From Myxococcota bacterium (GTDB taxonomy: Bacteria; Myxococcota; JACRCW01), in NCBI GenBank assembly GCA_040752415.1, contig JBFMGU010000152.1, positions 1 through 25,928 on the forward strand: 25,928 bases of DNA, read 5' to 3'. Shown here one piece after another: positions 45 through 20,154 of this stretch. A program made the position numbers and the translations under genes. Every line of letters starts with the position of its first letter. Within the stretch, counting starts at the first letter, position 1. The notes under the pieces are model-generated. The model was not told the DNA's origin, searched no databases, and was given only the letters and a program-made list of their open reading frames with translations.

Positions 45-233
45 CGGTAACGGTCCTTCGTGACGGCTTGGCGCACCAGGGCCAAACGGCCCGCGACCAC
101 GGGCGGCAACACGGAGCTGCCGGCCAGGTTGGCGTCGAGGGCGCGGCAACCTAACCATGGGTCCGGGGGCTGTCAAACCCGACCTGTCCGCGCTGCCCCC
201 ACCGCCGGTCCTCGCGTTAGGCTTGCTGGAAGC

Positions 234-1538
234 GTGGCTTCGTTCCTCAAACGGTTGACGCAGTCCCTGTGGGGCCCACCCGCGCCCGCGCCGTCGCTGC
301 CCGTGACGACGGAGCCCGTCCCCACGGAGCTCACGCCCGCGCAGCGGATGCACCAGGTGGCCGCGGAGTCGCTCCGCTCCGTCGACGCGCCCGCCTACGT
401 CCGCCACCAGGCCCGCGCCGACGCGGAAGCGCTGCTGGCCCTGGGAGAGACCGGGCTGGCGCGCAGCCTCCTCGTCGACGCGCTGGCGGTGGAGCCCGTG
501 TCCGCGCTGCGTGAGCTGCTGGCCCGCGTGCTGCTCCAGCGGGGTGAGACGCACCTGGCCCAGCCGTTGTTGGAGGCGTTGGCGCAGGATCCGCGGCACG
601 CCGCGGCGGCGGAGCTGCAGCTGGGCCAGCTGGCGGAGGACGCGGGGGACGCGCGGTCGGCCCGTCGACACTACGAGCGCGCGCTGGCGTTGCGTCCCGC
701 CGATCCCCTGGCGCGGGAGCGCGCCCGACGCCTCCGCGCGCGGGAAGAGGGCGAAGCGGGCCTGCCGCGTCAGGCGTGGGCGGCCATGAGCCGCATGTGG
801 GGCGAGGCGGCGGCGGCGGGACGGTACAGCGTCGTCGAGGAGATCGGGCGCGGTGGCGCGGCCACGCTGTTCCGCGCGCGGGAGCTGGGGACCTCGCGGG
901 AGGTGGCGCTCAAGCTGCTGCATCCGCGCGGGGACCCGGCGCTCCGTCGACAGCGGCTGGTGCGTGAGGCGGCCCTGGCGGCGCGCTTCACCTCCGAGCT
1001 GGTGGTGCCCATCCTGGAGGTGGTCCCGGAGCGCGACCTGATGGTGATGCCCTACCTGCACGAGGGCAGCCTGCGCATGCGCCTGGCGCAACGCGCGCTC
1101 CCGCCGCGGGAAGCGTTCCACCTCGTCGCGGAGCTGGCGTGGGCGCTGGCGCTCTTGCATGCGGGCGGGGTGGCGCACCTGGACGTGAAGCCGTCCAACG
1201 TGCTGCTCCGTCGGGGGCGACCGGTGCTGGCGGACTTTGGCGCCGCCAGTGCGCGGGAGCTGGGCCAGGCAGCGGGCACGCGACCCTACATGGCGCCGGA
1301 GGCCATGGTGCAACCCGCGGATCACCGCGCGGATCTCTATGCGCTGGGCGTGGTGCTGGTGGAGTGCCTGACCGGGACGCCTTCCGCCGACGCGCGCCCG
1401 CTCACCACGACGGGAAACGCCTCATCCCAGGCCGCCGCGCAGCTGGTGAAGCGGCTGTGCCACCCGGATCCGGAGCAGCGGTTGGGGGACGCGCGCACGG
1501 CGGCGCAGCTGTTCGCGGCGCTCGCGGCGTCGACGTGA
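234..1538 (+). CDS. TPR-repeat-containing Hanks-type Ser/Thr protein kinase
   Basis: Kinase motifs IGRGGAA, VALK, HLDVKPSNVLL, DFG, GTRPYMAPE and DLYALG. The N-terminal half has TPR-like helices (ARRHYERALALRPADPLA). GTG at 234 is preferred over the ORF start at 60, whose first 58 aa look non-coding. Confidence 0.88.
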   Translation: MASFLKRLTQSLWGPPAPAPSLPVTTEPVPTELTPAQRMHQVAAESLRSVDAPAYVRHQARADAEALLALGETGLARSLLVDALAVEPVSALRELLARVLLQRGETHLAQPLLEALAQDPRHAAAAELQLGQLAEDAGDARSARRHYERALALRPADPLARERARRLRAREEGEAGLPRQAWAAMSRMWGEAAAAGRYSVVEEIGRGGAATLFRARELGTSREVALKLLHPRGDPALRRQRLVREAALAARFTSELVVPILEVVPERDLMVMPYLHEGSLRMRLAQRALPPREAFHLVAELAWALALLHAGGVAHLDVKPSNVLLRRGRPVLADFGAASARELGQAAGTRPYMAPEAMVQPADHRADLYALGVVLVECLTGTPSADARPLTTTGNASSQAAAQLVKRLCHPDPEQRLGDARTAAQLFAALAAST

Positions 1539-3945: not shown

Positions 3946-6900
3946 TCACTGGAAGAAGCCGTTGGGGCAGGTGTTCACGTTGCAGCGGACGCCGTTCCAG
4001 TCCACCCACTGCGTGAGCACGATGCCGCTGTTGTTCAGGTTGTTCAGCAACTGCAGGTGCTGCGCACCCAGCGGACCGGCCACATCCGGATCCAGCGAGC
4101 CCTGGCGGGTCACACCACCGAACTCCACCATCTTGTGGCTGTTCTTGGAGTTCGCAACACCCGTCGCGGTCACGAACTGGTCGTAATCCGCGAACACGTT
4201 GGCCGGGTTGTTGTTGACCGTGGCCGGCGGGCACAGGTTCGCGTTCCCGTCAAAGAAGAACAGACGAGCCTGGTTGTCCAGCGCCGTGCCGTTGGTGCAG
4301 TCCGCAATACCCGCGGGCTGGTTCACGGTGGCGTTGGTCGCGCAGTTGATGAAGTTCATCGGGCAGCCGAAGCGGTCCGCAGCGAACTTCTTGTAGGTCA
4401 ACGCCCCGAGACCCGTGGTGGTGCGAACGAGGTCCACGGCGCTGGTGTTGTTCGCCGTGGCCTGGGTCAGGTGGCAGTGGAAGCAGGCCGTGCCGTAACC
4501 ACCCCAGTTCTGACCCGTGGGACGGCCACGCTGGCTGTGCGGCATGAACTCATGCTGGCCGCCCGCCGTGGTCATACGCTGTCGGTTGCCGGCGGAGGAG
4601 CCGGAGCCGAAGCGGTCGGAGAACAAGCCCTTGGCTCCCGTCACCGCGCCGTAGGTGTAGTTGGCATTGGTGGCCGCCGCCTGGACGCCGAACAGCGTCA
4701 TCACGTCCTGCAGACGGACAGCGTTGTTGTCGATGTAGTTGAACCAGTTGTGCTGCGGCTGGAACGGAACAATCCGCCCGTGGCTACCCACACCGATGTA
4801 GAAGGTGCTGATGTCAATGTACGTGAAGTTGGCGTTGATCGTGGTGAACACGTACTCGCCGTTCACGTTGTTGACAAAGTTCTGGTTGATGTCGTTGGCC
4901 CACGGGAAGCCCACGTTGGGAACGCCACCGGTGTTGTTGTTCGCGTAGTCGTTGCTGATCTGCGTGTACGCGTCCACGTTGGCACGCGCCTGCAGGTCAA
5001 GGTGGCAACCCACGCACTGGTTCTGCCAGGAGGTGTGGCAGGTGTAGCAGGCGATACCGCCCTTGTTGGTCGGCGAGCCCAGGTGGCTGAAGTTGCGAGC
5101 GCGCAGCGCCTGGTCAAGCTGGGCAACGTTCTGCAGCGGTCCGTCGCCGTTCGTCGGGTCAAAGTCCATACGACCCATCGCGAAGTCGGCGTTGGCGCTG
5201 TAGATGGGCTGGTTGTTGCGCGGGTTGGTGACCTGGCTGTTGCTGTTCACCAGGTCCTTCACCTGCGGGATGAAGTGCGGCACGCCGTCACGCTTGCCGA
5301 TCAGGTAGTAGCGGCCCGTCTGGTCCTTGTAGACGTGCTTGATCTCCTGGTCGTGACGATCCAGCGCAAAGCCGTTGGCGCTCAGCTTGGCAGGAGCGTC
5401 CGCGTTGCCGTGGCAGCTCTCGCAGTTGATGGCCAGCGCATGGTTGCTCCTCGCGTAGATACGGCCGTTACCGTGCATCTCACCCGTGGTGTGGCAGTCA
5501 TAGCACTCCAGGCCACGCTCGTAGTGGATGTCGGCAGGCGTGTCGTCACGGTTGGTCTGCGCGCGGTTGCCAAAGTCGTTGGCGTTCGGCGTGCCACCGA
5601 AGTTGATGTCGTAGAAGATGTTACGCCAACCGTAGTCCTCGTAGAGGATGTACTGCGTGGCCGCGCGGTTGTTGATGAGCGTGGTGCGGTCATTGATGTT
5701 CGGGCCGTACGGGATGTTGTACAGCTCGACGCCGTCACGACCCTGGAACTCGTTGCCAAACTTGGCCACGAACGGGTTGCCCGGGTACTGGCGGTTGTTC
5801 ACCACGTCCTGGTTCTGGTCCAGACGGATACCCACGTACTGGAGCACGGTGCGGTTGGAGCCCTGGTGGCAGCCAATGCACGCGCGCACGGAGTTGATGC
5901 CGTACAGGATCTGGTCCGGCTGACCCTGGCGCGCAATACGACGGTAACGGCCGCGGATGACGTGCTCACGCACGTGCGGACGCTCACCGGGGTAGATGAA
6001 GTCCGGGTTGATGGGCTCACCGCGGTTCAGGTTCGGGTCATAGCCGCGGTAGCGACCCTCAAAGCCGTACTCCATGTGGCAGGACGCGCAACCCGAGCCG
6101 CGGTAGTCCGCAGTCGTGTTGTTCTGGCCATTGTCGCCCGCGTGGCAGTCACCGCACTGCTTGACGAACGACACCGTGACGGCCTTGGCAAGCTCGTTGT
6201 TGGTGTCGCGGATGCGGTTGTAGCCGTACGTGATCCAGGCCTGCTGGTCCAGGTTGGCGTTGGACTCCACGCCTTGGGCCATCTGGGCTGACGTCACCGT
6301 CTGAACGTTCACGTTGCTCTCGAAGTCCTGGACGAAGCGCGGCTCCAGGAGGCTGTTCACCTGTCCGGCCTCAATGAAGTCGAGACTGGACGGACCGCCC
6401 GGGTTGGCCACGGCGGTGATGTCGCGCACGCCGTAGTCCGGTGCCCAGGCGCTGCGACCAGCCACCGCGTTGGGAATGCCGAACTCGAAGCGGGCGGTGG
6501 ACACCAGGCCGATGCTCGTGCCGATCACGGAGCGCGGAGTGTTCTTGGCGTGGTTGACGTGGCACTGGCCGCAGCTCTTGCCCGTCTCGACGACGCGGAG
6601 GTCACCGGGGGCGATGAACTGCAGGAAGTCCATCTTGGTCACGGTGCGGGTGGGCGTGCCGTCGGGGCCCAGGCAGGTCCACTGATCCGGGATGCCCAGG
6701 ATGCCGTCCGTCTGGCTCTTGTCCAGACCGGCCTTGTGCAGGTACCGGCTCCAGGCGCGCGGGCCGTACTGGTCAAGGATGACGCCCTCCCAGCGCGGCT
6801 CACCGTTGTCGCGGATCTGCTCGATGTCCGGCGGCGGGCAGACGTGGGCGCGGTCCTTGTACATGCCGCTGGTGGAATCGCCACCGTGGCAGTTGGTGCA

Positions 6901-7692
6901 GGCGACCGGCTGTCCACCGGCGGAGCGCCAGGGGTGCGGATCCTCCAGACCACCACCGCTGTAGCGGGGGTCGCTGGGGCCGGCGCCGTTGTGGCACTGC
7001 ATGCAGTTGCTGTTCTCGGGGGGAGCCGGGTCGCAGGGGGGCAGACCGGAACCGACCTCGTCAATATTGCAGAACAGCTGGCAGGCTGCCTGGTTATTGG
7101 CGTTGCCGTTCACGCGTCCGCCGCCGTTGGCGTCGCAGGCGCCCCACACCGCCTCGGAGCGGCAGTCAATGCTGGCGCCGTTGTACTGGGCCTGCGTACC
7201 GCCGAGGCAGTACTCGGTGTTCACGCCGCTGCTGATGGGCGTGCCGCCGCTGCTGCTGCCACCGGGGTTGCACGCGCCACCCGTGAGGGAGTCGATGCAG
7301 GCGGTCTCGTCGAAGTTGGGCGCGCAGCCGCCCGGACACTGGAGCGGACCGGTGCTGCTGATGCCGCCGCTGCTGGTGCTCGAAGGGTTGCCCGAGCTGG
7401 TGGACGTGTTGGGGTTCGACGTGGAACCGGAGCTGGTGCTGGCACTGCTCGGGTCACCACCACTGCTGGTGCCACCCGTGCTGCCGGTGCTCCCGGAGTT
7501 GCCGCCGCTGCCACTGGTGTTGCTGGCGCTGTCAGCGGTATCCGCGGGGCACATGCCCTCCTCGTCGGGTTCACTGCCGTCGTCGCACTTGGCGGAGCCA
7601 GTGCTGCTACATCCCCCCAATCCCAGGGGGACCGCTGACGCCACCGCCAATGCGGTGATCATCAGTCGGATTTGTCTATTTGGACTCTTCAT
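3946..7692 (-). CDS. Large multiheme c-type cytochrome lipoprotein (11 CxxCH motifs)
   Basis: Signal peptide with lipobox LGGC and a Ser/Gly/Thr linker. Heme motifs CMQCH, CTNCH, CGQCH, CGDCH, CASCH, CIGCH, CYDCH, CESCH, CYTCH, CVGCH, CFHCH. GAGGAGAGG SD upstream. Confidence 0.93.
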   Translation of the reverse strand: MKSPNRQIRLMITALAVASAVPLGLGGCSSTGSAKCDDGSEPDEEGMCPADTADSASNTSGSGGNSGSTGSTGGTSSGGDPSSASTSSGSTSNPNTSTSSGNPSSTSSGGISSTGPLQCPGGCAPNFDETACIDSLTGGACNPGGSSSGGTPISSGVNTEYCLGGTQAQYNGASIDCRSEAVWGACDANGGGRVNGNANNQAACQLFCNIDEVGSGLPPCDPAPPENSNCMQCHNGAGPSDPRYSGGGLEDPHPWRSAGGQPVACTNCHGGDSTSGMYKDRAHVCPPPDIEQIRDNGEPRWEGVILDQYGPRAWSRYLHKAGLDKSQTDGILGIPDQWTCLGPDGTPTRTVTKMDFLQFIAPGDLRVVETGKSCGQCHVNHAKNTPRSVIGTSIGLVSTARFEFGIPNAVAGRSAWAPDYGVRDITAVANPGGPSSLDFIEAGQVNSLLEPRFVQDFESNVNVQTVTSAQMAQGVESNANLDQQAWITYGYNRIRDTNNELAKAVTVSFVKQCGDCHAGDNGQNNTTADYRGSGCASCHMEYGFEGRYRGYDPNLNRGEPINPDFIYPGERPHVREHVIRGRYRRIARQGQPDQILYGINSVRACIGCHQGSNRTVLQYVGIRLDQNQDVVNNRQYPGNPFVAKFGNEFQGRDGVELYNIPYGPNINDRTTLINNRAATQYILYEDYGWRNIFYDINFGGTPNANDFGNRAQTNRDDTPADIHYERGLECYDCHTTGEMHGNGRIYARSNHALAINCESCHGNADAPAKLSANGFALDRHDQEIKHVYKDQTGRYYLIGKRDGVPHFIPQVKDLVNSNSQVTNPRNNQPIYSANADFAMGRMDFDPTNGDGPLQNVAQLDQALRARNFSHLGSPTNKGGIACYTCHTSWQNQCVGCHLDLQARANVDAYTQISNDYANNNTGGVPNVGFPWANDINQNFVNNVNGEYVFTTINANFTYIDISTFYIGVGSHGRIVPFQPQHNWFNYIDNNAVRLQDVMTLFGVQAAATNANYTYGAVTGAKGLFSDRFGSGSSAGNRQRMTTAGGQHEFMPHSQRGRPTGQNWGGYGTACFHCHLTQATANNTSAVDLVRTTTGLGALTYKKFAADRFGCPMNFINCATNATVNQPAGIADCTNGTALDNQARLFFFDGNANLCPPATVNNNPANVFADYDQFVTATGVANSKNSHKMVEFGGVTRQGSLDPDVAGPLGAQHLQLLNNLNNSGIVLTQWVDWNGVRCNVNTCPNGFFQ

Positions 7693-7833
7693 CGCGACCT
7701 CTCCTCGTCTGGCGGGCCAGCGGACCGGGTCCCTGCCCCTTGGGCGCAGTTGTTGCGGATCACCAAGCTTCAGTGTCCGCCCGACTTCCCCTCAAGTTGC
7801 TCCAAGATCCCTCACGCCGGTGACAGCACACGC

Positions 7834-7849
7834 TGCACGGCTGGAGCCA
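7834..7849 (-). promoter_or_regulatory. Candidate sigma54 (-24/-12) promoter for the cytochrome gene
   Basis: Minus-strand TGGCTCCAGCCGTGCA has the GG-N10-GC spacing and 2 mismatches to TGGCAC-N5-TTGCA. It lies ~140 bp upstream of the ATG. Confidence 0.4.
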
Positions 7850-7873
7850 TAGCACATGCCGATCCAACTTGAA

Positions 7874-7887
7874 CATCACGCGTGATG
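7874..7887. promoter_or_regulatory. Perfect 14-bp palindrome, possible operator
   Basis: CATCACGCGTGATG is its own reverse complement and lies in the 400-bp intergenic region upstream of the cytochrome. Confidence 0.4.
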
Positions 7888-7945
7888 ACGTCGCACCCGC
7901 GCCAATCCCGTGATCTTCAAGGTGAAAGTCTCACACGCACATGTC

Positions 7946-8012
7946 GGTGGGGGCTGGTGCCCCATCGACAACTGGGGAATAGGCCCCCCACCTGGGGAAT
8001 GAAGCCCCCACC
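7946..8012. repeat. Three copies of TGGGG-N6/7-CCCCCACC (one inverted, two tandem direct)
   Basis: 7946-7964 is the inverted copy (revcomp TGGGGCACCAGCCCCCACC). 7973-7992 is TGGGGAATAGGCCCCCCACC and 7993-8012 is TGGGGAATGAAGCCCCCACC. Confidence 0.7.
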
Positions 8013-8097
8013 AGGGTCGGATCCGATCCGGACGTGCGAACGGGCTCCCCGCAGCCGACGCAGCGGTTTCGCGAAAACGGAAAATGGGCGGTGGAAA

Positions 8098-10071
8098 TCA
8101 GCGCGCGGCGGGGCGAACGAGCTTGCCCTCGACCTCGCTGAGGCGGCGCTTGAGACCGGCGTTCTCGGGCTCATAGCCCAGCGCGAAAGTCAGGTTGAGT
8201 CGCGCGCCGTTGAGGTCATTCCGGTTGAGCGCCTGCAAGGCCAGCTTCAGGAACTTCTTGCCGCCGGGCGTGGTGGCGTCGTCCTCCGGGTTGGCGGCGG
8301 GCTCCGCGGGAGCGGCAGGCGGCGGCGGTGGCGACGGAGCGGGCGTGTGCGGCGGCGAGGGCAACGACGCATTGGCCGGTGTGGGCAGCCGGCTCCGCAC
8401 CTGCGGCTTGGACGTCGGGACCACGACGCGGAAGGCGGGCGTGTCGGAGGGTTGCAGCGCGGGGCGCACGGGCGGGGGCGCGTCGTCGACCACCACGCTG
8501 CTGGACGGCGACGGAGGAGGCGGCGGGGCGGCCTCACGTTCGGGCGCGGGGGGGACCACCTCCGGCGGGGCGGGATGGGAGCCCACGCGCAGCAGCTCCT
8601 CGTAGGCCGCACGCTCCTGGGGGTCGGAGAGGACGCGGAAGGCCTCGGTCACCCGACGGTAGATGGCGGTGAGCCGGTCGCGCAGGGCGCCGGAGGGCAA
8701 CCAGGTGTAGCGGTCCGGGTGGAACTCCAGGCTGAGCGCGTGGAAGGCGGCCATCACGTCGTCCGCGGAGGCGGTGCGTTCCACGCCGAGCAGTTGGTAG
8801 AGGTCCAGGCGATCCAACAGGCGGTACACCGCCATCACGCGACGCGTCTTCTCGCGGCCCAGGATGTCCTCGTGCACGCGCGCGGGGTCCGGTCGCAGGC
8901 CGGTGCGGCGCAGCGCGGTGGTCTCCCCCTCCAGGGGGATCACCTCGACGTCGCGGGGCAGCGGGGGCGCGTCGGTCTTCAGCTTGCGCGGGGGAACCGC
9001 GTTGGGCGGCACCGGGGGGCCCTCACCGACGGGCAGCACGGGCAGCGGCGGATCCGCGCGGGGAATCAGCGCGCCGGCCGCCAGCTCATCCGCGCGCTCG
9101 ACGACGTGCTGCAGGTGCGCGAGCAGATCCACCGCGGGCTGGGTGGCCGCTGGCGCCCCGCCCGACGAGGCGAACACGTCCTCCTCCGCCTGCGGCTCGG
9201 GAGCGGCCTTGCCCGACGCCACCGCCTCGCGGAGTTGCTCCAGTCCCTCGGGGCCGGTGCCCACGTCGGTCTTGGAGGGCTCGGCCTCACTGGCGGCCGC
9301 GGGCGCGGCGGGCTCCTCGACGGAGGCGGGCGTGGGCTCGTTGTGGTCGGGGGGCGCGGGCGGTGCGGCGGCGGCATCCTCCGTCTTCAGCGCCTGCTGG
9401 ATGACCTCCGCGGGCGTGCCCTCCGGCGGCGTGCGCTCACCTTCCGCGGCCGCCGGCAGCTCAACGTCACCGGCCATGGTGGGCTCGGCCACCGGCGGCG
9501 GCCCCAGCGGCGCCACCGTGTCCGCGGAGGGCGACTCATTGAGCGCCGCCGCAACCACGCGCTGGTCCAGGCCGCTCAGCGTGGTGGGCTCGTCGGGGGC
9601 GTCGGGGGAGGAGGCCGCGTCCAGCTCCATGGCGGTCGACGGCAACGCGGAATCCAGCTCCAGCTCCAACGCCGTGGCGGCGAACTGCGCCGCGCGCTTG
9701 AGGCTGATCTCCTTGAGCACGCGCTCGCACGCCCGGGAGTCCAGCGGCTGGGGCAGGATCCCGTCGACGGTGGAAGGCGCCGCCTGCGCACGCTCCTCCG
9801 CGCTGAGCTGGTCATGACGCTCATGCATCACGAAGAGCAGCACCCCCAGCTCACGGGCCTTCTGGCTGATCTTCCCGGCGAGGCGGGGCGCGTCCACGCG
9901 GGAGGCGGCCAGCAGGACGGCGTCCGGTCTCACCTCGTGGAAGCGGTCCAGGCCGTCTTCCTCGTCGAGCGCATAGACCAGGGAGTGCGGCGCGGTGGAC
10001 ATGAGCTTGTTGAGCTCCGCCCGACGCAGCGGGTCGCCGTCAACCACCAGAAGGATCCGCCTCTGCACCAT
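8098..10071 (-). CDS. Multidomain J-domain protein: atypical receiver domain, Pro/Ala linker, J domain and C-terminal TPR-like helices
   Basis: The N-terminus RILLVVDGDP...RPDAVLL has a receiver-fold pattern. J domain DLYQLLGVERTASADDVMAAFHALSLEFHPDRY...AFRVLSDPQERAAYE, with HPD at 8713-8721. C-terminal ALQALNRNDLNGARLNLTFALGYEPEN. Confidence 0.88.
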   Translation of the reverse strand: MVQRRILLVVDGDPLRRAELNKLMSTAPHSLVYALDEEDGLDRFHEVRPDAVLLAASRVDAPRLAGKISQKARELGVLLFVMHERHDQLSAEERAQAAPSTVDGILPQPLDSRACERVLKEISLKRAAQFAATALELELDSALPSTAMELDAASSPDAPDEPTTLSGLDQRVVAAALNESPSADTVAPLGPPPVAEPTMAGDVELPAAAEGERTPPEGTPAEVIQQALKTEDAAAAPPAPPDHNEPTPASVEEPAAPAAASEAEPSKTDVGTGPEGLEQLREAVASGKAAPEPQAEEDVFASSGGAPAATQPAVDLLAHLQHVVERADELAAGALIPRADPPLPVLPVGEGPPVPPNAVPPRKLKTDAPPLPRDVEVIPLEGETTALRRTGLRPDPARVHEDILGREKTRRVMAVYRLLDRLDLYQLLGVERTASADDVMAAFHALSLEFHPDRYTWLPSGALRDRLTAIYRRVTEAFRVLSDPQERAAYEELLRVGSHPAPPEVVPPAPEREAAPPPPPSPSSSVVVDDAPPPVRPALQPSDTPAFRVVVPTSKPQVRSRLPTPANASLPSPPHTPAPSPPPPPAAPAEPAANPEDDATTPGGKKFLKLALQALNRNDLNGARLNLTFALGYEPENAGLKRRLSEVEGKLVRPAAR

Positions 10072-10106
10072 GCGTCCGTCCCAGAACCCTCAGGGGGCGC
10101 CCAGCT

Positions 10107-11675
10107 TCAGGCGCGCACCTCTCCGCGCCTCAGGCGCAGCAACACCACGTCCTGCTCCAACGACTCCGCGCCCGCGCGCACCACCGGCGAGCTGCGCGTC
10201 CCGGTGGCGAGATCGGTGGCGCTCACGTTGAGCACCCCGTCGCAGTCCATCTCAAAGCTCACCTCCACCCTGCCCTCCCCCCGACGGGACGAGCGCAGGC
10301 CCTCCACCACGAACTCGCCCGTGGCGCGACGTTGCCCGTCGGTGCCCTCGCCCTGCAGCAGCTGCACGTGCAGGCGCTCCTGGTCGTCGGTGGAGGTGGT
10401 GAAGACACAGCGGCGCTCCGACGGGATGGGCGAGTTGCGCGCGAACAGGCGCTCCTCCCGTCCGCCCGCTTTCACGAACCACGGAGACGGCAGCACGTCG
10501 GAAATCAGGGAGCCGGGCTTCTCCTCCGGGCTGGCCGCGTCCAGCAGCTGACGCGCGTACAGCGCCGCGCCCAGGGCCACCGCGCCGTCGTCCTGCGCCA
10601 CGCCCAGGGGGGCCTTCTTGAAGTAGCGCGCCGCCGCTTCCGCCACGAGCGGCACCCGCGTGGCACCACCCACCAGCAGCACCGCGTCCAGGTCCCCCAC
10701 GACGGTGCGCGCCGACTTCAACGCCTGGTCACACAGCGCCAGCGTCCGACGCACCACGTCCTGCCCCGCGGTGGTGATCTCCTCCCGCGTCAGCTCCGCC
10801 ATCAAGTCCAGCGGGCCGTTGTCGCCGTAGGCCATCTCCCGCAGGCGGACCTCCACGCTGGTGTTCTCGCTGAGGTGGATCTTGCTGTTCTCCGCGGCGT
10901 TGAGAAGGCGTTGCGTGGCCACCACGTCGGTGGCGAGGTCCAGGCCGTGCTCGGCGAGGAAGCGGCTGCGCAGCGCCTCGTACAGCAGGCGGTCGAACTC
11001 GTCTCCGCCCACCATCGTGTCGCCGGCCACCGCGCGCACCTGGACCACGTGGTCGCGCACGTCGAGGACCGCGGCGTCGAAACACCCACCGCCAAACGCG
11101 TACACCGCCACGCGCTGCTGCAATCCCGCCCCGTGCGCGTGCAACAACGTGGCCGCGGCGGGCGCGCTGACAATGCGCAGCACGTCCAGGCCGGCCATCT
11201 GCGCGGCGAGTCGGAAGGCGAGGCGCTGCGCGTCGGAGGCGCAGGCGGGAACGGCAATCACCGCCTTGCTCACCGGCCCGCCCAGGAAGGCTTCCGCCTG
11301 CGCCTTGAGGTGCGTGATGAGCACGGAAGCCACTTCCGACGGGCTGTAGACGTTCTCGCCAATCTCCACGCCGACCTTCCCGGAAGGACACGGCACCAGC
11401 GTGTAGGGCACGGCGTGGGAGAGCGACTTGATGACCGGGTCGTCGGCGTCGCGGCCGAGGAGGCGCTTGACGCCGTAGACGGTGCGCGCGGGGTCAATCA
11501 GCCGACGCCGCTTGGCGTCCAGCCCGACGATGGGCTCGCCGTCCTCGGGGTAGGACACCACCGCGGGCGTCAGGATCCGACCCTGGTCATCCGGGATGAC
11601 CACCGGGGCACCGTCCTTGACGGCCGCCACGGAGGCGTTGCTGGTTCCCAGATCAATCCCGATGACCCTGTCCAT
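10107..11675 (-). CDS. Hsp70 (DnaK-like) family protein, lidless and with degenerate ATPase motifs
   Basis: IGIDLGTSN, KRLLGR, GGDEFD, AAENSKIHLS and VLLVGGATRVP motifs, plus an SBD-beta pattern FTTSTDDQ...VEVSFEMDCDGVLNVSATD. It is 522 aa and ends right after the beta-sandwich. Confidence 0.92.
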   Translation of the reverse strand: MDRVIGIDLGTSNASVAAVKDGAPVVIPDDQGRILTPAVVSYPEDGEPIVGLDAKRRRLIDPARTVYGVKRLLGRDADDPVIKSLSHAVPYTLVPCPSGKVGVEIGENVYSPSEVASVLITHLKAQAEAFLGGPVSKAVIAVPACASDAQRLAFRLAAQMAGLDVLRIVSAPAAATLLHAHGAGLQQRVAVYAFGGGCFDAAVLDVRDHVVQVRAVAGDTMVGGDEFDRLLYEALRSRFLAEHGLDLATDVVATQRLLNAAENSKIHLSENTSVEVRLREMAYGDNGPLDLMAELTREEITTAGQDVVRRTLALCDQALKSARTVVGDLDAVLLVGGATRVPLVAEAAARYFKKAPLGVAQDDGAVALGAALYARQLLDAASPEEKPGSLISDVLPSPWFVKAGGREERLFARNSPIPSERRCVFTTSTDDQERLHVQLLQGEGTDGQRRATGEFVVEGLRSSRRGEGRVEVSFEMDCDGVLNVSATDLATGTRSSPVVRAGAESLEQDVVLLRLRRGEVRA

Positions 11676-11780
11676 GCGCGCTTTGTCCTGGGGAGGCGTG
11701 GCACGCTAGTCCTCGCGTGGCAGCGCGCGCAATTGCTGATTCGTGGTTCATCGCCCCCGCCCGCGCTGCAGGATCCGTCG

Positions 11781-12620
11781 ATGCGCCTGCTGCTGTTGAC
11801 CCGCCGGCCCACCGGCTACACCGCGCGTCGCCTGCGCGAGGCCGCCGACGGGCTGGGCCACCGGATCCTGGCGCTGGATCCCGCGGGCCTGGGCGCCCAC
11901 CTCGGCGCCGGTCGTCCCACCCTGGTGCGCGGCAACCGGCCCGTGCCCGCCGTGGACGGGGCCCACCTGCGCCCCGGTGGTCGCACCGCGGAACACGGGC
12001 TGTTGCTGCTCCGCGTGTTGGAGACCGCCGGCGTGCCATGCCTGAACTCCACCGTGGCCCTGGGTCAGCTCCGACCCCGCACCCTGGCGCTGGCGCAGCT
12101 GGGACTTTCCCGCATCCCCGTGCTGCGCGGCGCCACCGTCCGTCGTGGACGCGAGCTGGAGGACGCGGTGGCGGCGGCGGGGGGGCTGCCGGTGGTGCTC
12201 CACGCCGAGAGTCGCGACGGAAGAATCTCCCGCGTGGGCGCCAGCTCCCTTGCCGCCGCGCGCGCCGCGCTGAGCGTGCTGCTGGGTGTGGAGCAGACCG
12301 TGATGGTGCAGGCGGGCGCGCCGCGGATGACGCGCGTGCTCGTGGTGGGCGGCCGCGCGCGCGGCGCGGTGACCCGGCTGGCGACGGGACGGATGCGCTA
12401 CGTGGCGGAGGTGGGGCCGGAGACGCAATTGGCGGCCCGCGCCGCGCGCGCGTTGGGATTGGACGTGGCGGGTGTCGACGTGGCGGCGCTGCGCGAGGGT
12501 CCCGCGGTGGCTTCCGTGACGGCCTCACCGGCGTTGGAGGCGCTGGAGGCGCTGGGCGGAGTGGACCTGGCCACGCCGATGGTGCGCGCGTGGGCGGCCC
12601 GGGTGCGCGCGGGTGCATGA
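11781..12620 (+). CDS. RimK-like ATP-grasp fold protein, apparently degenerate
   Basis: MRLLLLTRRPTGYTARRLREAADGLGH matches the RimK N-terminus, and LAARAARALGLDVAGVDV matches the RimK C-domain. The real start is the ATG at 11781 inside the 10332 ORF. Confidence 0.8.
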   Translation: MRLLLLTRRPTGYTARRLREAADGLGHRILALDPAGLGAHLGAGRPTLVRGNRPVPAVDGAHLRPGGRTAEHGLLLLRVLETAGVPCLNSTVALGQLRPRTLALAQLGLSRIPVLRGATVRRGRELEDAVAAAGGLPVVLHAESRDGRISRVGASSLAAARAALSVLLGVEQTVMVQAGAPRMTRVLVVGGRARGAVTRLATGRMRYVAEVGPETQLAARAARALGLDVAGVDVAALREGPAVASVTASPALEALEALGGVDLATPMVRAWAARVRAGA

Positions 12621-13099
12621 GCGCAGGCAACCGGGTAGAACACGGCGCCATGATCAAGCACACCCTCGTGTTCCTGATGCTCTCCGCCCCCGTCCTGGCC
12701 CAGCAGCCCCAGGAGAAGCACTACACCGTCGACACCAGCGGCACGCCGCGCGAGGTGAAGGTGGGTGACAAGGGCTCGCTCTCGATTGTCATCACGCCCA
12801 GCGCCGGCAAGAAGGTGCACGACCAGGCGCCGCTGGTGGTGAGCCTCAAGGGCAGCAAGGGCGTGGCGCTGGCCAAGAACAAGCTGGGTCACTCCGACGT
12901 GGCCAACAAGGGCGACAAGGCCCCGCAGATCAAGGCGGAGTTCACCGCGCGCGAGCCCGGCGAGCAGACCGTGGACGCCGACATGCAGTTCTTCATCTGC
13001 ACCGACAAGTGGTGCGAGCGCATGACTGAGAAGGTCAAGGTCACCCTGAACGTGGTGCCCGCCGACGCCGCGCCAGCGCCCACACCAGCACCCAAGTGA
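12617..13099 (+). CDS. Secreted Ig-like protein resembling the DsbD N-terminal domain (CxxxxC motif)
   Basis: Signal peptide MIKHTLVFLMLSAPVLA (alternative start 12650), beta-rich body and FFICTDKWCER near the C-terminus. ATG 12617 overlaps the upstream stop (ATGA). Confidence 0.7.
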   Translation: MSAGNRVEHGAMIKHTLVFLMLSAPVLAQQPQEKHYTVDTSGTPREVKVGDKGSLSIVITPSAGKKVHDQAPLVVSLKGSKGVALAKNKLGHSDVANKGDKAPQIKAEFTAREPGEQTVDADMQFFICTDKWCERMTEKVKVTLNVVPADAAPAPTPAPK

Positions 13100-16629: not shown

Positions 16630-19600
16630 TCAGGGAATGGGCGTGGCGATCACGTTGGCCTTGGTGACGTCGAACTGCAGGCCGCTGTTGGTGCTCTTGA
16701 TGGGGTTGCTGAAGGTGCGGGTGGCGCCCTGGACGGCGCTGCACTGCGTGCCCGACCACACCGCGTCCGCCACGAAGCACCAGCCGTCCACCGGGATGTC
16801 CTCACAGCGGTAGCGCTTGAAGCCCACGCCCTTGCAATACACCTCCACCTCGACGTCCACGCTCTGCTTGCCCGCCGGGGCCACGCCCCGCACGTTGCCC
16901 GTGAAGCCGTCGGCGGTCTGCACCACCGGCTCACCGTAGTAGTGCACGGCCACGGTGTAGTGGTCGGCGGGGAAGTTGGCGGGACGCTTGATGGAGACGT
17001 TCTCCGGCGTGCACACCGTGTTGCCCTGCGCGTCCTGGTAGCAGCCGCGACGGTTGTCGATGTCCAGCTTGGGATTGGCGTCCGCGCTGAACGTCCCGCC
17101 GTTGGTAAACGGGAAGCTGGTGGACCACGACTGGCCCTGCGTGGTCACGCCACTGATGTTCACGTCCTGGTTCCACGTCAGCGTGTCCTGCACGCACGTG
17201 GGCTGGCCGGGCACGGTGACGGTGCACGCGTTGCAGTTGCCGTAGTGGCAGTCCGGGAGGGCGCGCGCATCCTCGGCGTCGTAGCAGCTGTACACCTGGC
17301 TGTAGGCGTTGAAGCAGCTGTTGGAATTGGCGGGGCCCCAGTTGAAGGAGAAGAAGTAGTCCTGCGCGTTGACCTCGGCGATGGGGTGCAGCACGTGCAG
17401 GTCCACGTCCACCGCGTCAAACATCACGAGCTGCGCGTTGAAGTCCTCGTCGGGGCCGGCCACCGTGAAGCTGACCGTGCAGTTCTGCTCCGACGCGCCC
17501 ACCTGGGTGAGACGCACGCGCAGGGTGTAGTCGCCGCGCACCACCGGAGAGAAGGTCACGGTCGTCGTCGTGGCGCCCTGGAGGGCGAGGCTGTTGGCGC
17601 TGGGCTCCGCCTCCACCGACCAGAGCACGCTGTACGTACCCGGCACCGCGCCGGACACCGTGGCGGTCAGCGTGATGGTGTCCAGGATGCGCTTGCCCAC
17701 CGGCGGCGCGGGACAGGCCAGGGAGCCAAAGCCCTCGTCGGTGAAGCCGTTGCAGTCGTTGTCACGACCATCCGCCGCCACTTCGGCGTGACCGGTGTAG
17801 GAGGTCGCATCGTTGTCGTCGCAGTCGTCACCGCCGCAGGTCACAGGGAAGTGGCCGTCGGAATCCGCGTCGAGCGGGCGGCTGCCGCAGCCGGTGGCGG
17901 GGTCGCAGAAGCCCACGTGGCACGCGTCCACCGCCGGACACTCGAAGGGCGAGGCCGGTCCCACACAGCCCTGCCCCACCACGCAACGCTCCGCGCCATT
18001 GCACGCGTTCTGGTCCTGGCACACGTCATGGTCCGTGGTCACGCCGGGCACGCCCGCGGTGCAGGTCTCCGTGGCGCAGGCAAACCCGTCGTCGGTGGGC
18101 AGGTCGGCGTCATCCACCGCGCTGACCACCGCGAGGCCCTGACAGACCTCCTTGTGGCAATCACCACCGCCGAGCTGGGCCGGTACCGCGGTGGGGTCCG
18201 CGTCGTGGATGCAGTCCAGGATGACGTCGCAGGTGTCCAGGGAGCACACGTTCCCGTCGTCGCAGCGGGCGCTGACCGGGTTATGCGTCACCGTGCCGGT
18301 GGCGGGGTCGCACACGTCATCCGTGCAGCCAACCTGGTCATCGACGAGCGGCGCCACGCCGGGAAGACAGATGCCACCGGCGAGCACGTCGCACAGCTCG
18401 AAACCGTTGCACAGCGTGCCATCCTGGCACCCGAGATCGTCGCGACAATCCTGCACCTGCACACACACGCCGGAGAGGCACGCCTGGTCCAACGGACAAT
18501 CCGCCGACGTGGTGCAGGTATCATTGCGCGCGCAGGTGCCGGCCTCGCAGTGCTGCTCGCGGGGGCATTCCGCGTCGGTGCTGCACGCGGGATTGGGCTC
18601 ACAGCGACCGGCCACACAGCGCTCGCTCGTCGTGCACTGGGTGTCGCTGGTGCACTGCGGGCCCTGGGTGCACACGCCGCCCTGGCAGAACTGGGAGGCG
18701 GGGCAATCACCGTGGTCCTGGCACGCGCCGTTGTCCGTGCACACGCCGTTCACGCAGGACTGCGCGGCCGGGCACTGGCTGTCCTCCGTGCAGGACGGAT
18801 TCCGACGACACACGCCATCCACGCAGCTCTCACTGGCCGAGCAGTCCGCGTCAAACGCGCAGGGCGGGTTGCGCGAGCAGACCCCGGAGACACAGCTCTT
18901 GTCCGACGGACAATCCGCATCCACCGTGCACGCCGGGTTGTTGTGACACACGCCCGCGACGCAGGTCTGGGAGAGGGCGCAGTCGGAGTTGTCGGTGCAG
19001 CCGCCGTTGCGCGTGCAGGTGCCGGACACGCAGGACTGGGTGGCGGGGCAGTCGGCGTTGTCGTCGCAGGAGGGGTTGGCGACGCAGTAACCACCCTGGC
19101 AGCCCTGGTTGGGCGCGCAGTCTTCCGCGCTCGAGCAGGTGGGGTTGAACGTGCAGACGCCGTTCACGCAGGTCTGCTGCGGAGTGCAGTCGCCGTTGTC
19201 GTCGCAGGTGTTGTTGCGGGTGCAGGTGCCGTTCACGCAGGCCTGTGTGGCCGGGCAGTCGGTGTTGACACTGCAGGACGGGTTGTCGACGCAGCGGCCG
19301 TCGGCGCAGTGTGCATTCGCGGCGCAGTCCGAGTCCGCGGAGCAGGAAGGGATGTCCTGGCACGCGCCATCCACGCACGCTTTCCCGGCGCCGCACTCCC
19401 CGTCGGAAGCACAGCTCTCACAGCTCCCGTCGCGACACACCTGGCCATTGGCGCAGTCACCGTTCTCTTGACACTCCACCTGGCAGTTTCCGTCGCGACA
19501 CACCAGCCCGTCCGCGCACTGCCCGTCGTCGGTGCAATCGGCGCACGCGCCGGAAACGCAGACCCTTCCGTCGGTGCAGTCCGCGTCATCACGGCACCCG

Positions 19601-20019: not shown

Positions 20020-20154
20020 CGACCGCCTCCCAGGCCCTCCGCGGGGCCGGAAGAGGTATCGCCGTCGGCATCAGCTTGTTGTTGTAGGTATTTCTCCTAC
20101 GCGATTTTTTCGCGCCAGAGGCCCCTGGAAGCCCCTCCAATGCACGCAACCATC

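What the first reader, a model, noticed from the sequence alone, without database searches (positions are those of the whole stretch)
8098..12620. Three adjacent intact 'pseudoenzymes': receiver-J protein, Hsp70 and RimK-like ATP-grasp protein, a candidate undescribed module
Seen: three full-length, stop-free ORFs with normal high-GC codon usage, arranged around a 105-bp divergent gap. Each keeps its fold motifs but has lost key catalytic residues: the receiver Asp and Lys, the Hsp70 E171/D194/T199 equivalents, and the RimK ATP and metal ligands. The J-domain HPD is intact. Known: J-domain HPD motifs engage Hsp70s, and myxobacteria use specialised DnaK paralogues (SglK, StkA) in motility and EPS control. 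Inference: this may be a scaffold or signalling module that works by protein-protein interaction rather than catalysis, or simply a chance neighbourhood of diverged paralogues.
Basis: partly seen in the sequence, partly recalled or inferred. Interest (0 to 1): 0.72.

Follow-up and report, generated by a model that had tools for sequence, protein, structure and literature searches.

The report
Conserved cluster of three pseudoenzymes
An uncultured myxobacterial lineage keeps side by side an Hsp70 chaperone, its J-protein partner and a RimK-like ligase that have all lost catalytic residues yet stay intact in relatives, which points to an undescribed chaperone-type module that probably works by binding rather than by catalysis.

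Summary
They encode a lid-less Hsp70 with E171A/D194A/T199C, a J-protein with intact HPD behind a receiver that lacks its Asp and Lys, and a RimK fold without K141, E260, N262 or the ATP loop.

None is a decaying orphan. The Hsp70 belongs to a monophyletic family of 6 full-length members, 0 of 6 keeping E171, against 25 of 25 canonical paralogues. In two same-class genomes it sits in an operon with the same pseudo-receiver J-protein. The RimK-like protein belongs to a family of at least 7 full-length metagenomic members, all sharing the same losses, and its model superposes on RimK (TM 0.86-0.90).

I could not fetch these contigs. G002 and G003 lack the RimK-like gene.

A fourth gene joins the neighbourhoods: a small secreted DsbD_N-like protein, found phylum-wide next to RimK or next to the J-protein.

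Reading: the Hsp70/J pair is the core, the RimK-like protein a later accessory, and the function is non-catalytic. Physical interaction is not shown. I class it as a new variant of a known kind.

The parts
8098..10071 (-). RJ: a 657-aa J-protein made of an N-terminal pseudo-receiver, a long Pro/Ala/Glu-rich linker with conserved short motifs, a J domain and a C-terminal helical TPR-like motif.
   Evidence: ORF. Pfam DnaJ 47.4 bits. Orthologues are aligned.
9697..10071 (-). Pseudo-receiver domain of RJ (about aa 1-125). Ala stands at the phospho-acceptor position and Gln at the conserved Lys position.
   Evidence: The profile of 5 orthologues matches PleD, PhoP, RssB and the FrzS pseudo-receiver (E 1.2e-10 to 3.4e-5). 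Pfam Response_reg matches 5 of 5 members at E up to 1, best 8.3e-12, but the window's own score of 14.3 bits is below the cut-off.
8599..8805 (-). J domain of RJ (aa 423-491) with intact HPD.
   Evidence: Pfam PF00226 covers 1-63 of 63 profile positions. H451, P452 and D453 are invariant in 9 of 9 aligned relatives.
8101..8277 (-). Conserved C-terminal helical motif of RJ (aa 599-657). It is shared with the small J-proteins that partner the lid-less Hsp70s of the phylum.
   Evidence: Conserved. It is 34% identical to the C-terminus of the 180-aa J-protein at G000:C496. The 'TPR-like' label is my inference; no Pfam hit was found.
10107..11675 (-). HSP*: a 522-aa Hsp70 paralogue. It keeps the nucleotide-binding domain and the beta substrate-binding domain and has no helical lid. 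It carries E171A, D194A and T199C. R167 and the adenosine-pocket motifs are kept, and the family shares a specific C-terminal tail.
   Evidence: Pfam HSP70 at 402 bits matches profile positions 1-501 of 599. The DnaK equivalog scores 425.7 bits against a cut-off of 648.
11676..11780 (.). 105-bp divergent intergenic region between HSP* and the RimK-like gene.
   Evidence: Sequence. There is no sigma-70-like promoter or intrinsic terminator by consensus scan and no sigma-54 consensus here.
11781..12620 (+). Pseudo-RimK: a 279-aa ATP-grasp protein with the complete RimK fold. It lacks K141, E178, D187, the 207-215 loop, E260 and N262.
   Evidence: Family alignment. The AlphaFold2 model has pLDDT 92 and pTM 0.89. 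Foldseek's best hits are RimK structures with TM 0.86-0.90.
12650..13099 (+). SSP: a 149-aa secreted protein with a signal peptide and the invariant motif FFICTDKWC. It starts 29 bp after the pseudo-RimK stop. It is the gene that ties the neighbourhoods together across the phylum.
   Evidence: ORF. Alignment. The family is found in 337 of 401 phylum genomes. The DsbD_N-like fold is a lead only (Atlas structure TM 0.70 to a PF11412 cluster). No Pfam or NCBIfam hit.

Best explanation
The window holds a conserved, lineage-restricted module of proteins that have given up catalysis and most likely act by binding.

Shown: the core is an operon of a lid-less Hsp70 (HSP*) and a J-protein with a pseudo-receiver (RJ). 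Every known HSP* member lacks the catalytic Glu171. RJ keeps its HPD motif.

Inferred mechanism: HSP* still has its beta substrate-binding domain, the J-contact Arg167 and, in this genome, the adenosine-pocket motifs. It therefore probably binds nucleotide and peptide but cannot run a J-stimulated hydrolysis cycle. It would act as a holder or as a regulatory subunit docked to RJ. RJ's pseudo-receiver and its linker motifs would take protein inputs instead of phosphorylation. RJ's J domain may also drive one of the 13 catalytically intact Hsp70s of the cell.

The RimK-like protein is a later accessory of the G000-type branch. It probably arose in place from the RimK that sits upstream of the small secreted protein SSP across the phylum. 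It keeps the RimK fold and its N- and C-domains. It has lost ATP and Mg binding, so it is more likely a binder of a peptide tail than a ligase.
For: 1. HSP* family. The 6 full-length members are the window, P0159, P0160, P0162, G002:C49 and G003:C310. They are monophyletic (SH-aLRT 98). E171 is kept in 0 of 6, against 25 of 25 canonical paralogues. D194 is kept in 2 of 6, T199 in 1 of 6, K70 in 3 of 6 and R167 in 6 of 6. The beta substrate-binding domain and a C-terminal tail are conserved.

2. HSP* followed by RJ. The arrangement is the same in G002 and G003, as SSP, then HSP*, then RJ. NG86 dN/dS between G002 and G003 is 0.33 for HSP*, 0.34 for RJ and 0.33 for SSP. Canonical Hsp70 controls give 0.19 and 0.23.

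3. RJ. The acceptor Asp is absent and HPD present in all 9 aligned relatives. RJ's J domain and C-terminal motif resemble those of the small J partner of the phylum's lid-less Hsp70. Grouping HSP* with that Hsp70 type is not rejected (AU p 0.48).

4. Pseudo-RimK family. In 7 of 7 full-length members K141, E260 and N262 are replaced and the loop is shortened to 4-7 residues from 17. Among 27 canonical RimKs, K141 is kept in 25 and E260 and N262 in 26 each. The central domain is the least conserved: 0.29 mean identity against 0.50-0.57 in canonical groups. The fold is kept.

5. Origin of pseudo-RimK. 8 of the 11 best non-self loci for the family profile have SSP directly downstream.

6. Co-location by identical recorded contig length.
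- 24,194 bp: P0054 (pseudo-RimK), P0160 (HSP*, 53% identity) and P0259 (RJ, 40%).
- 3,336 bp: P0010 and P0159.
- 22,590 bp: P0162 and P0260.
- 22,743 bp: P0027 and P0261.

Against: No interaction among the proteins was shown.

The RimK-like gene is absent from the HSP*-RJ loci of G002 and G003. No match was found in those genomes at E 1e-38, and one search found none in G002 and only a weak one in G003. The core pair therefore works without it.

Co-location on metagenomic contigs rests on contig-length identity, not on sequence I could read. Those organisms are kin, so inherited synteny alone could explain it.

In family f6, RJ stands next to SSP without any HSP*. RJ therefore does not need HSP*.

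HSP* evolves 2-3 times faster than canonical paralogues at non-synonymous sites and about 5.8 times faster by tree path. That is also what relaxed constraint would give.

In the same-family genome G001 (92% complete), none of the three was found. Its SSP contig breaks 166-340 bp upstream of SSP.

The tree could not place the window's RimK-like protein: the AU test rejected none of three placements (p 0.28-0.44).
Confidence: 0.55

Rival explanations
1. Only HSP* and RJ form a functional unit. The RimK-like gene is the resident RimK of the SSP locus. It lost its ligase role after a second, canonical RimK (G000:C171) took over, and it now does something unrelated. It lies beside HSP* through inherited gene order among close kin.
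For: RimK followed by SSP is an old, widespread pair: 11 of 20 loci fetched around SSP, plus 8 of the 11 best profile loci. G002 and G003 have HSP*-RJ but no RimK-like gene. G000 has a second RimK with canonical motifs at C171. The organisms that share the cluster are related.
Against: The RimK-like family keeps an intact, confidently folding protein at 38-45% identity among full-length members (66% for the fragment P0009), so it is under selection for some function. It travels with HSP* even on a 3,336-bp contig, where the two genes, about 2.5 kb together, must be adjacent.
Confidence: 0.27
2. HSP* and RJ are a dedicated chaperone pair for the neighbouring small secreted protein SSP, much as HscA and HscB serve IscU. 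They would hold the precursor before export.
For: SSP, HSP* and RJ form one co-directional cluster in G002 and G003. SSP is followed by RJ at gaps of 11-42 bp in the 7 f6 genomes where the printed match reaches RJ's N-terminus. The two are adjacent in all 10 f6 genomes for which both coordinates were printed. A J-protein lies directly upstream of SSP in 2 of 2 f18 loci. SSP stays within 1 kb of HSP* in the window despite the rearrangement.
Against: In 11 of 20 loci SSP has RimK and no chaperone gene of this type beside it. A non-hydrolysing Hsp70 cannot release a client by the usual cycle. SSP is predicted to be periplasmic while the pair is cytoplasmic. No test of binding was made.
Confidence: 0.15
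3. The three proteins are still enzymes, with slow or altered chemistry. HSP* would be a slow ATPase, like DnaK E171 mutants. The RimK-like protein would use other ligands.
For: In the window, HSP* keeps D8, K70, the phosphate loops GTSN and GGG, D201 and the adenosine-pocket motifs. Three relatives carry E171Q, a conservative change. The RimK-like protein keeps D248 in 7 of 7 members.
Against: The other catalytic positions of HSP* drift freely among members: K70 to V, M or C, D201 to F or G, and T199 to A, G, Q or C. That is the pattern expected once hydrolysis no longer matters. The RimK-like family lacks the Lys, both remaining Mg ligands and the whole nucleotide loop.
Confidence: 0.1
4. 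The cluster is a chance neighbourhood of decaying paralogues, that is, pseudogenes kept open by high G+C.
For: High-GC DNA keeps long spurious ORFs open: 889 aa and 762 aa antisense ORFs lie in the same stretch. All three genes evolve fast.
Against: All three align in frame over their full length to their families. Each has intact relatives at 33-66% identity with the same losses. dN/dS between G002 and G003 is about 0.33. The RimK-like model has pLDDT 92.
Confidence: 0.04

Closest known systems
Lid-less Hsp70 plus small J-protein pair of Myxococcota (here G000:C496, locus L032: a 537-aa Hsp70 followed by a 180-aa J-protein)
   Same: The Hsp70 ends after the beta substrate-binding domain. A J-protein lies directly downstream, with the same extended J domain and the same C-terminal helical motif as RJ (34% identity in each block). 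These Hsp70s are the nearest rows to HSP* by tree path, and a joint clade is not rejected (AU p 0.48). J-plus-C-terminus matches to such short J-proteins are listed in many families of the phylum. The Hsp70 lying beside the J-protein was seen in G000, G001 and G082.
   Different: The C496-type Hsp70 keeps E171, D194 and T199 and passes the NCBIfam DnaK cut-off (667 bits against 648). Its J partner has no pseudo-receiver and no long linker.
Ribosome-associated complex of eukaryotes: atypical Hsp70 Ssz1 with J-protein Zuo1
   Same: Both pair an Hsp70 homologue that does not work through its own ATPase cycle with a J-protein. In the complex, the J domain acts on another, canonical Hsp70 (abstracts seen in the listing: PMC8476630, PMC7083937, PMC9197937). 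That Ssz1 has a shortened substrate-binding domain is recalled, not checked here.
   Different: This is an analogy only. No specific homology to Ssz1 or Zuo1 was tested. No ribosome link, no stable heterodimer and no second Hsp70 partner are shown here. This system is bacterial and carries a pseudo-receiver and a RimK-like partner.
RimK, the ribosomal protein S6 L-glutamate ligase (E. coli 4iwx and 5zct; Pseudomonas 7qyr and 7qys)
   Same: The whole three-domain ATP-grasp fold is shared: sequence E 1.8e-24 over residues 1-273 and Foldseek TM 0.86-0.90. D248 and the N-terminal pre-ATP-grasp domain are kept.
   Different: K141, E178, D187, the 207-215 loop, E260 and N262 are lost. The protein scores below the curated cut-offs: 83.2 bits against 331 and 58.6 against 143.4.
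Pseudo-receivers of Myxococcus, such as FrzS (PDB 2gkg)
   Same: Both have a receiver fold without the phospho-acceptor Asp. The RJ N-terminal profile matches the FrzS receiver at E 3.4e-5. That the FrzS receiver serves as an interaction domain is recalled, not checked here.
   Different: Here the domain is fused to a J domain rather than to a coiled coil. No link to motility was tested.
HscA/HscB with IscU, and the specialised M. xanthus DnaK paralogues SglK and StkA
   Same: These are specialised Hsp70 systems encoded beside a client or pathway. Myxobacteria carry many Hsp70 paralogues of unknown role (PMC8265645: abstract and section 5 read. PMC4319316: listing only).
   Different: HscA, SglK and StkA are described as Hsp70 or DnaK homologues, and none is reported to have lost catalytic residues. 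PMC8265645 has 0 occurrences of 'catalytic', 'ATPase' or 'DnaJ'. I did not compare sequences with SglK or StkA.

Membership tests
Hsp70 superfamily (Pfam PF00012) | Hsp70 nucleotide-binding and substrate-binding domains scoring above Pfam's gathering score | tested here: met
   402.3 bits against a cut-off of 20.6, matching profile positions 1-501 of 599.
DnaK (NCBIfam NF001413 / TIGR02350 equivalogs) | Score above the curated equivalog cut-off | tested here: not met
   425.7 bits against 648, and 406.8 against 822.55.
DnaK / catalytic Hsp70 | Catalytic residues E171, D194 and T199 (E. coli DnaK numbering, recalled) | tested here: not met
   The window has A, A and C, while 13 of 13 other paralogues of the genome keep E, D and T. 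Across the family, E171 is kept in 0 of 6.
DnaK / catalytic Hsp70 | Helical lid (alpha substrate-binding domain) and C-terminal tail | tested here: not met
   The protein ends at residue 522, shortly after the beta domain. The match ends at position 500 of 625 in the DnaK model.
J-domain proteins (Pfam PF00226) | J domain above the gathering score, with the HPD motif | tested here: met
   47.4 bits against 27.8. HPD is invariant in 9 of 9 relatives.
DnaJ class A (NCBIfam DnaJ equivalogs) | Full DnaJ architecture scoring above the cut-off | tested here: not met
   About 45 bits against cut-offs of 377-585. Only the J domain matches.
Response-regulator receiver (Pfam PF00072) | Receiver fold or sequence family | tested here: inconclusive
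   The window alone scores 14.3 bits against 30.2. The profile of 5 orthologues matches solved receivers at E 1.2e-10, and Pfam matches 5 of 5 members at E up to 1, best 8.3e-12.
Response-regulator receiver (Pfam PF00072) | Phospho-acceptor Asp and the conserved Lys | tested here: not met
   The acceptor position is A in the window and C, H or A in relatives. The Lys position is Q in the window.
RimK family (Pfam PF18030 + PF08443; NCBIfam TIGR00768, NF007764) | Domain-level membership | tested here: met
   Rimk_N scores 44.3 bits against 26.4, and RimK 33.4 against 21. The fold matches at TM 0.86-0.90.
RimK family (Pfam PF18030 + PF08443; NCBIfam TIGR00768, NF007764) | Curated family cut-off, and the ATP and Mg ligands (K141, E260, N262 and the 207-215 loop) | tested here: not met
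   58.6 bits against 143.4, and 83.2 against 331. The ligands are replaced or deleted.
RAC-like pair (Ssz1/Zuo1 type) | Stable heterodimer of a non-hydrolysing Hsp70 with a J-protein that activates a second Hsp70 | not testable with these tools
   Only the sequence prerequisites are seen: lost catalytic residues, no lid and an adjacent HPD J-protein. No complex of HSP* with RJ was modelled.
DsbD N-terminal domain (PF11412), for the neighbouring SSP | Family membership by sequence | tested here: not met
   No Pfam hit at E 0.01. There is only an Atlas structural lead, TM 0.70 to a PF11412 cluster.

The most novel reading that the evidence does not exclude
This would be a bacterial counterpart of the eukaryotic ribosome-associated complex. 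A catalytically dead, lid-less Hsp70 is permanently docked to a J-protein, and that J-protein's HPD drives a separate, active Hsp70. The RimK-derived pseudo-ligase serves as a reader of the glutamate tail of ribosomal protein S6, or of another acidic tail, and so places the complex at the ribosome. The locus descends from a translation-linked neighbourhood: RimK, SSP and then a gene whose N-terminus resembles the rRNA methyltransferase RlmB (my reading from memory; no family scan was run), a tRNA region I did not scan, and tuf, as seen in families f11 and f15.
Probability: 0.08. Interest if true: 0.85.

Novelty: new variant of a known kind. Interest (0 to 1): 0.62.

Why it matters
Pseudoenzymes are well charted among kinases and phosphatases, but I found little on them for chaperones and ATP-grasp ligases in bacteria. 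My literature searches gave the following:
- No paper held both 'RimK' and 'pseudoenzyme'.
- Three papers held 'pseudoenzyme', 'DnaK' and 'Hsp70', and none has them in its title or abstract.
- No listed paper describes a pseudo-receiver J-protein.

These searches cover only the open-access library held here.

If the module works as read, it gives a natural example of an Hsp70 kept for binding rather than for its ATP cycle. It also gives the first family of RimK-fold proteins kept without the ligase site. Both would make testable how Hsp70 and J-protein networks with many paralogues, 14 in this genome, divide their labour. The small secreted protein, which is found across the phylum and anchors these neighbourhoods, is itself undescribed.

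Tried and rejected
1. Complex prediction on HSP* (alignment A8) with the RimK-like protein (A6) gave the verdict 'no answer'. It counts neither for nor against binding.

2. The look-up of sequencing runs on 8098-13099: none was listed and no RNA holder was listed.

3. 'The RimK-like protein is an orphan'. I held this, where the best relatives were 36-41% identical ordinary RimKs. I dropped it when the exhaustive HMMER search found the degenerate family.

4. The search for related loci.
- Metagenome contigs with the single protein gave one weak, partial and probably unrelated hit (L106).
- Genome contigs with alignment A7 used a single pattern that canonical RimKs share. It returned 80 ordinary RimKs at 34% identity or less. 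It says little about absence.

5. 'HSP* descends from the housekeeping DnaK that sits upstream of RimK-SSP in family f15'. The AU test rejected this (p 4.6e-5).

6. Placement of the window's RimK-like protein on the RimK tree is unresolved. It sits on a long branch of 1.4-1.6, and three alternative groupings were not rejected (p 0.28-0.44).

7. Sigma-54 promoters. I looked because an FHA/sigma-54 activator flanks the G002 and G003 loci. Matches were no more frequent than chance and none lay in the relevant intergenic regions. The sigma-70 and terminator scan found nothing.

8. dN/dS between the window and G003 is uninformative. The values are 0.62-0.87, but the phylum-wide conserved SSP gives 0.79 at the same distance, so dS is saturated at GC3 of about 0.9.

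9. The search of earlier findings by place and by sequence returned nothing.

Full report
**Anatomy**

The window is the whole contig C60 of an 11-Mb draft genome, G000, which is 96.8% complete and in 520 contigs. Names on related proteins and Atlas taxa point to Myxococcota. The record itself is unnamed.

Four genes matter here:
- RJ, 8098-10071(-), 657 aa.
- HSP*, 10107-11675(-), 522 aa, lying 35 bp upstream of RJ on the same strand.
- A 105-bp divergent gap, 11676-11780.
- The RimK-like gene, 11781-12620(+), 279 aa.
- SSP, 12650-13099(+), 149 aa, starting 29 bp after the RimK-like stop.

GC3 is 0.89-0.92 for the three reported genes, as in the neighbouring genes. This DNA is 72-75% G+C and keeps spurious antisense ORFs of 762 and 889 aa open over the same stretch. 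Openness alone therefore proves little.

**Checking the observation**

Pfam confirms DnaJ, HSP70, and Rimk_N plus RimK above their cut-offs. The curated NCBIfam cut-offs for DnaK, DnaJ and RimK are all missed.

HSP* aligns over residues 1-519 with DnaK structures. I aligned it with the 13 other Hsp70 paralogues of G000:
- It alone has SAPAAA where the others have NEPTAA (E171A, N170S).
- It alone has AFGGGCFD where the others have DxGGGTFD (D194A, T199C).
- It keeps D8, K70, R167, D201, the GGG loop and the adenosine-pocket motifs.
- It ends right after the beta substrate-binding domain, so it has no lid.

The RimK-like protein aligns with E. coli RimK over residues 1-273. It has K141H and E178A, has D187 and residues 207-215 deleted, has E260S and N262T, and keeps D248.

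The N-terminus of RJ scores only 14.3 bits on the Pfam receiver model. A profile of five orthologues matches solved receivers such as PleD and PhoP, and also the FrzS pseudo-receiver (E 1.2e-10 to 3.4e-5). In that alignment the acceptor Asp and the conserved Lys are replaced. HPD is intact.

**HSP* and RJ are a conserved pair**

Only three relatives of the same class are held: G001 in the same family, and G002 and G003 in a second family. G002:C49 and G003:C310 both carry SSP, then HSP*, then RJ on one strand. An FHA/sigma-54 activator converges on the cluster.

Their HSP* copies also lack E171 (SSP in place of NEP), T199 (Q) and K70 (M or C). Their RJ copies lack the acceptor Asp and keep HPD.

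An index search added P0159 (55% identity), P0160 (53%), P0162 (48%) and the fragment P0161 (79%).

The six full-length HSP* proteins form one clade (SH-aLRT 98). The tool warns that long branches meet in this part of the tree.

| Residue | HSP* family (kept, of 6) | Residues seen | Canonical paralogues (of 25) |
|---|---|---|---|
| E171 | 0 | A, Q, Q, Q, S, S | 25 |
| D194 | 2 | | 25 |
| T199 | 1 | | 25 |
| D201 | 3 | | 25 |
| K70 | 3 | | 25 |
| R167 | 6 | | 20 |

There is one shared loss, E171, followed by lineage-specific drift of the other catalytic positions. The beta substrate-binding domain and a family-specific C-terminal tail stay conserved. This is the pattern of a protein kept for something other than hydrolysis.

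NG86 dN/dS between G002 and G003 is 0.33 for HSP*, 0.34 for RJ and 0.33 for SSP. Two canonical Hsp70 controls give 0.19 and 0.23. dS is 0.6-1.3, near saturation, so the ratios are rough. HSP* accumulates non-synonymous change 2-3 times faster than the controls, and about 5.8 times faster by tree path (2.26 against 0.39).

**Where the pair comes from**

RJ's J domain and C-terminal motif match small J-proteins of about 180-200 aa listed in many families of the phylum. In G000 (C496), G001 (C19) and G082 such a J-protein lies just downstream of a lid-less but catalytically intact Hsp70.

These Hsp70s are the nearest rows to HSP* by tree path, and a joint clade is not rejected (AU p 0.48). Grouping HSP* with the housekeeping DnaK type is rejected (p 4.6e-5).

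Among the 150 matches printed (71 more were not), profile matches that include the pseudo-receiver part of RJ came from 12 genomes only. These are G000, G002, G003 and nine genomes of family f6. In f6 there is no HSP*: in five f6 genomes the HSP* profile scores only E of about 1e-138 to 1e-145, and in G082 the best hit lies beside a small J-protein.

RJ is therefore older than HSP*.

**The small secreted protein ties the neighbourhoods together**

SSP has a signal peptide and the invariant motif FFICTDKWC. It has no Pfam or NCBIfam family. An Atlas structural lead points to the DsbD N-terminal fold (TM 0.70).

A three-sequence profile finds it in 337 of 401 sampled phylum genomes, nearly always once. 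That tally includes the unpublished genome G195 as one count.

Its neighbours vary by family:

| Family or genome | Arrangement around SSP |
|---|---|
| 11 of the 20 loci fetched (families f7, f11, f15, f22, f26) | RimK, then SSP |
| 3 of those 11 (family f15) | The housekeeping DnaK lies further upstream. In G059 (f15) and G156 (f11), the two such loci whose full gene lists I read, SSP is followed by a gene I read as rlmB and by tuf and ribosomal genes. The gene names come from the N-terminal sequences, from memory. |
| f6, all 10 genomes with both coordinates printed | SSP, then RJ. Gaps are 11-42 bp in the 7 genomes where the match reaches RJ's N-terminus. |
| f18, 2 of 2 loci | A J-protein, then SSP |
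| G002 and G003 | SSP, then HSP*, then RJ |
| The window | Both themes around one SSP |

**The RimK-like protein is not an orphan**

Searches by shared words and by patterns found only ordinary RimKs at 36% identity or less. The exhaustive HMMER search found closer proteins: P0009 (66%, a fragment), P0010 (45%), and P0011, P0016, P0027, P0029, P0062 and P0054 (38-43%). They are 249-309 aa long, and each is the only member of its cluster.

In 7 of 7 full-length members:
- K141 is H, R, S or T.
- E260 is S, N, G or A.
- N262 is T or S.
- The nucleotide loop is cut from 17 residues to 4-7.

Among 27 canonical RimKs of the phylum, K141 is kept in 25 and E260 and N262 in 26 each.

Mean pairwise identity within each group, by domain:

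| Domain | Pseudo-RimK family | Canonical groups |
|---|---|---|
| N | 0.39 | 0.46-0.50 |
| Central | 0.29 | 0.50-0.57 |
| C | 0.44 | 0.51-0.53 |

The AlphaFold2 model is confident (pLDDT 92, pTM 0.89). It superposes on RimK structures at TM 0.86-0.90.

Among 401 phylum genomes only G000 matches the family profile strongly (2.6e-108; the next best is 3.4e-53). Of the 11 best non-self loci, 8 have SSP directly downstream. This fits an origin in place from the SSP-linked RimK. The tree cannot place the long branch. G000 also has a canonical RimK on contig C171.

**Do the three genes travel together?**

I could not fetch the metagenomic contigs. The collection does record the length of the longest contig that carries each protein:

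| Recorded contig length | RimK-like | HSP* | RJ |
|---|---|---|---|
| 24,194 bp | P0054 | P0160 | P0259 |
| 3,336 bp | P0010 | P0159 | |
| 22,590 bp | | P0162 | P0260 |
| 22,743 bp | P0027 | | P0261 |

On the 3,336-bp contig the two genes fill about 2.5 kb, so they must be adjacent.

I read these coincidences as co-location in at least two further lineages. These lineages are kin of G000, so inherited gene order is a sufficient explanation. G002 and G003 show that HSP* and RJ do without the RimK-like gene.

In G001 none of the three was found. The genome is 92% complete and its SSP contig breaks just upstream of SSP.

**Mechanism**

Shown:
- Three intact, conserved proteins whose catalytic residues are gone.
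- An operon link between HSP* and RJ.
- An intact HPD in RJ and an intact J-contact Arg167 in HSP*.

Inferred from established Hsp70 knowledge: a J domain docks on the ATP form and triggers hydrolysis, which needs E171 and T199. On that basis:
- HSP* can probably bind nucleotide and peptide but cannot complete the J-driven cycle.
- It therefore acts as a holder, or as a fixed partner of RJ.
- RJ's pseudo-receiver and linker motifs take protein inputs.
- The RimK-like protein binds a partner through its conserved N- and C-domains.

The nearest functional analogy is the eukaryotic Ssz1/Zuo1 complex (abstracts seen). Membership in that system was not tested.

**Prior work**

The M. xanthus Hsp70 survey counts 15 paralogues. 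It does not mention catalytic residues, ATPase or DnaJ (PMC8265645: abstract and section 5 read; term search). I found no paper that describes RimK pseudoenzymes or pseudo-receiver J-proteins in the library searched.

Earlier notes of this scan report lid-less Hsp70 and J-protein sets in other genomes. These are leads only.

**Verdict**

The module reading is partly supported: the core pair is strongly supported, the accessory plausibly so, and interaction is untested. I class the finding as a new variant of a known kind.

Noticed in passing
window 12650-13099 (+); L052 7051-7494 (-); L053 10157-10600 (-): A small secreted protein family with the invariant motif FFICTDKWC. It is found in 337 of 401 sampled phylum genomes, nearly always as a single copy. 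It has no Pfam or NCBIfam family, and there is a structural lead to the DsbD N-terminal fold. Depending on the family, it sits next to RimK, a J-protein, RJ or a Ser/Thr kinase.
   Followed up: partly
L032 1486-3099 (+) and 3118-3660 (+) (G000:C496); G001:C19; G082:C1 2477349-2479462: A lid-less but catalytically intact Hsp70 of about 525-537 aa is followed by a J-protein of about 180 aa, made of a J domain plus a C-terminal helical motif. J-proteins of this kind are listed in many families of the phylum. The Hsp70-J pairing itself was seen in these three genomes. It is the closest paralogue set to HSP*/RJ.
   Followed up: partly
L092 (G059:C1), L095 (G156:C1), L084, L085: In families f15 and f11 the SSP locus lies just upstream of a run of genes I read as tuf, secE, nusG, rplKAJL and rpoB. 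The order is RimK, then SSP, then an rlmB-like gene, then a tRNA region I did not scan, then tuf, with the housekeeping DnaK upstream in f15. Gene names are read from N-terminal sequences, from memory.
   Followed up: no
L052 1991-3742 (+); L053 4537-6282 (+): An FHA-domain sigma-54 activator converges on the 3' end of RJ in both G002 and G003. No sigma-54 promoter consensus was found upstream of the operons.
   Followed up: partly
window 3946-7692 (-), within 4001-8000: A 1248-aa predicted lipoprotein with multihaem cytochrome c motifs lies in a stretch of lower G+C (0.62-0.67, against 0.70-0.75 around it). It may be a foreign insertion directly downstream of RJ.
   Followed up: no
L096 (G247) and L097 (G186), SSP-linked RimK genes: Two otherwise ordinary SSP-linked RimKs show single changes at the metal ligands (E260D with a shortened loop in G247; N262H in G186). 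This hints that the clade may be prone to losing ligase residues.
   Followed up: no
window 8098-10071, RJ linker (aa about 130-400 and 500-600): Short motifs in the otherwise disordered linker are conserved between the window's RJ and P0259, P0260 and P0261, but not in G002, G003 or f6. One acidic motif ends in DVFAS and one has the form KTNVGxEPxGL. This is the same branch that carries the RimK-like gene.
   Followed up: no
window 7882-10551 (+), 10332-12620 (+), 11653-12663 (-): Very long antisense or out-of-frame ORFs (889, 762 and 336 aa) overlap the real genes. They are artefacts of high G+C and a warning against using ORF length as evidence in this genome.
   Followed up: yes
window 16630-20070 (-), 51-1538 (+): An 1146-aa protein with five DUF7107 cysteine-rich repeats, and a TPR-Ser/Thr kinase, lie elsewhere in the window. 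Neither is linked to the finding.
   Followed up: no
L089, L090, L102 (families f20, f18, f32): In these families SSP lies beside a conserved Ser/Thr kinase of about 700 aa and a second protein of about 700 aa. This is another recurrent neighbourhood of SSP.
   Followed up: no
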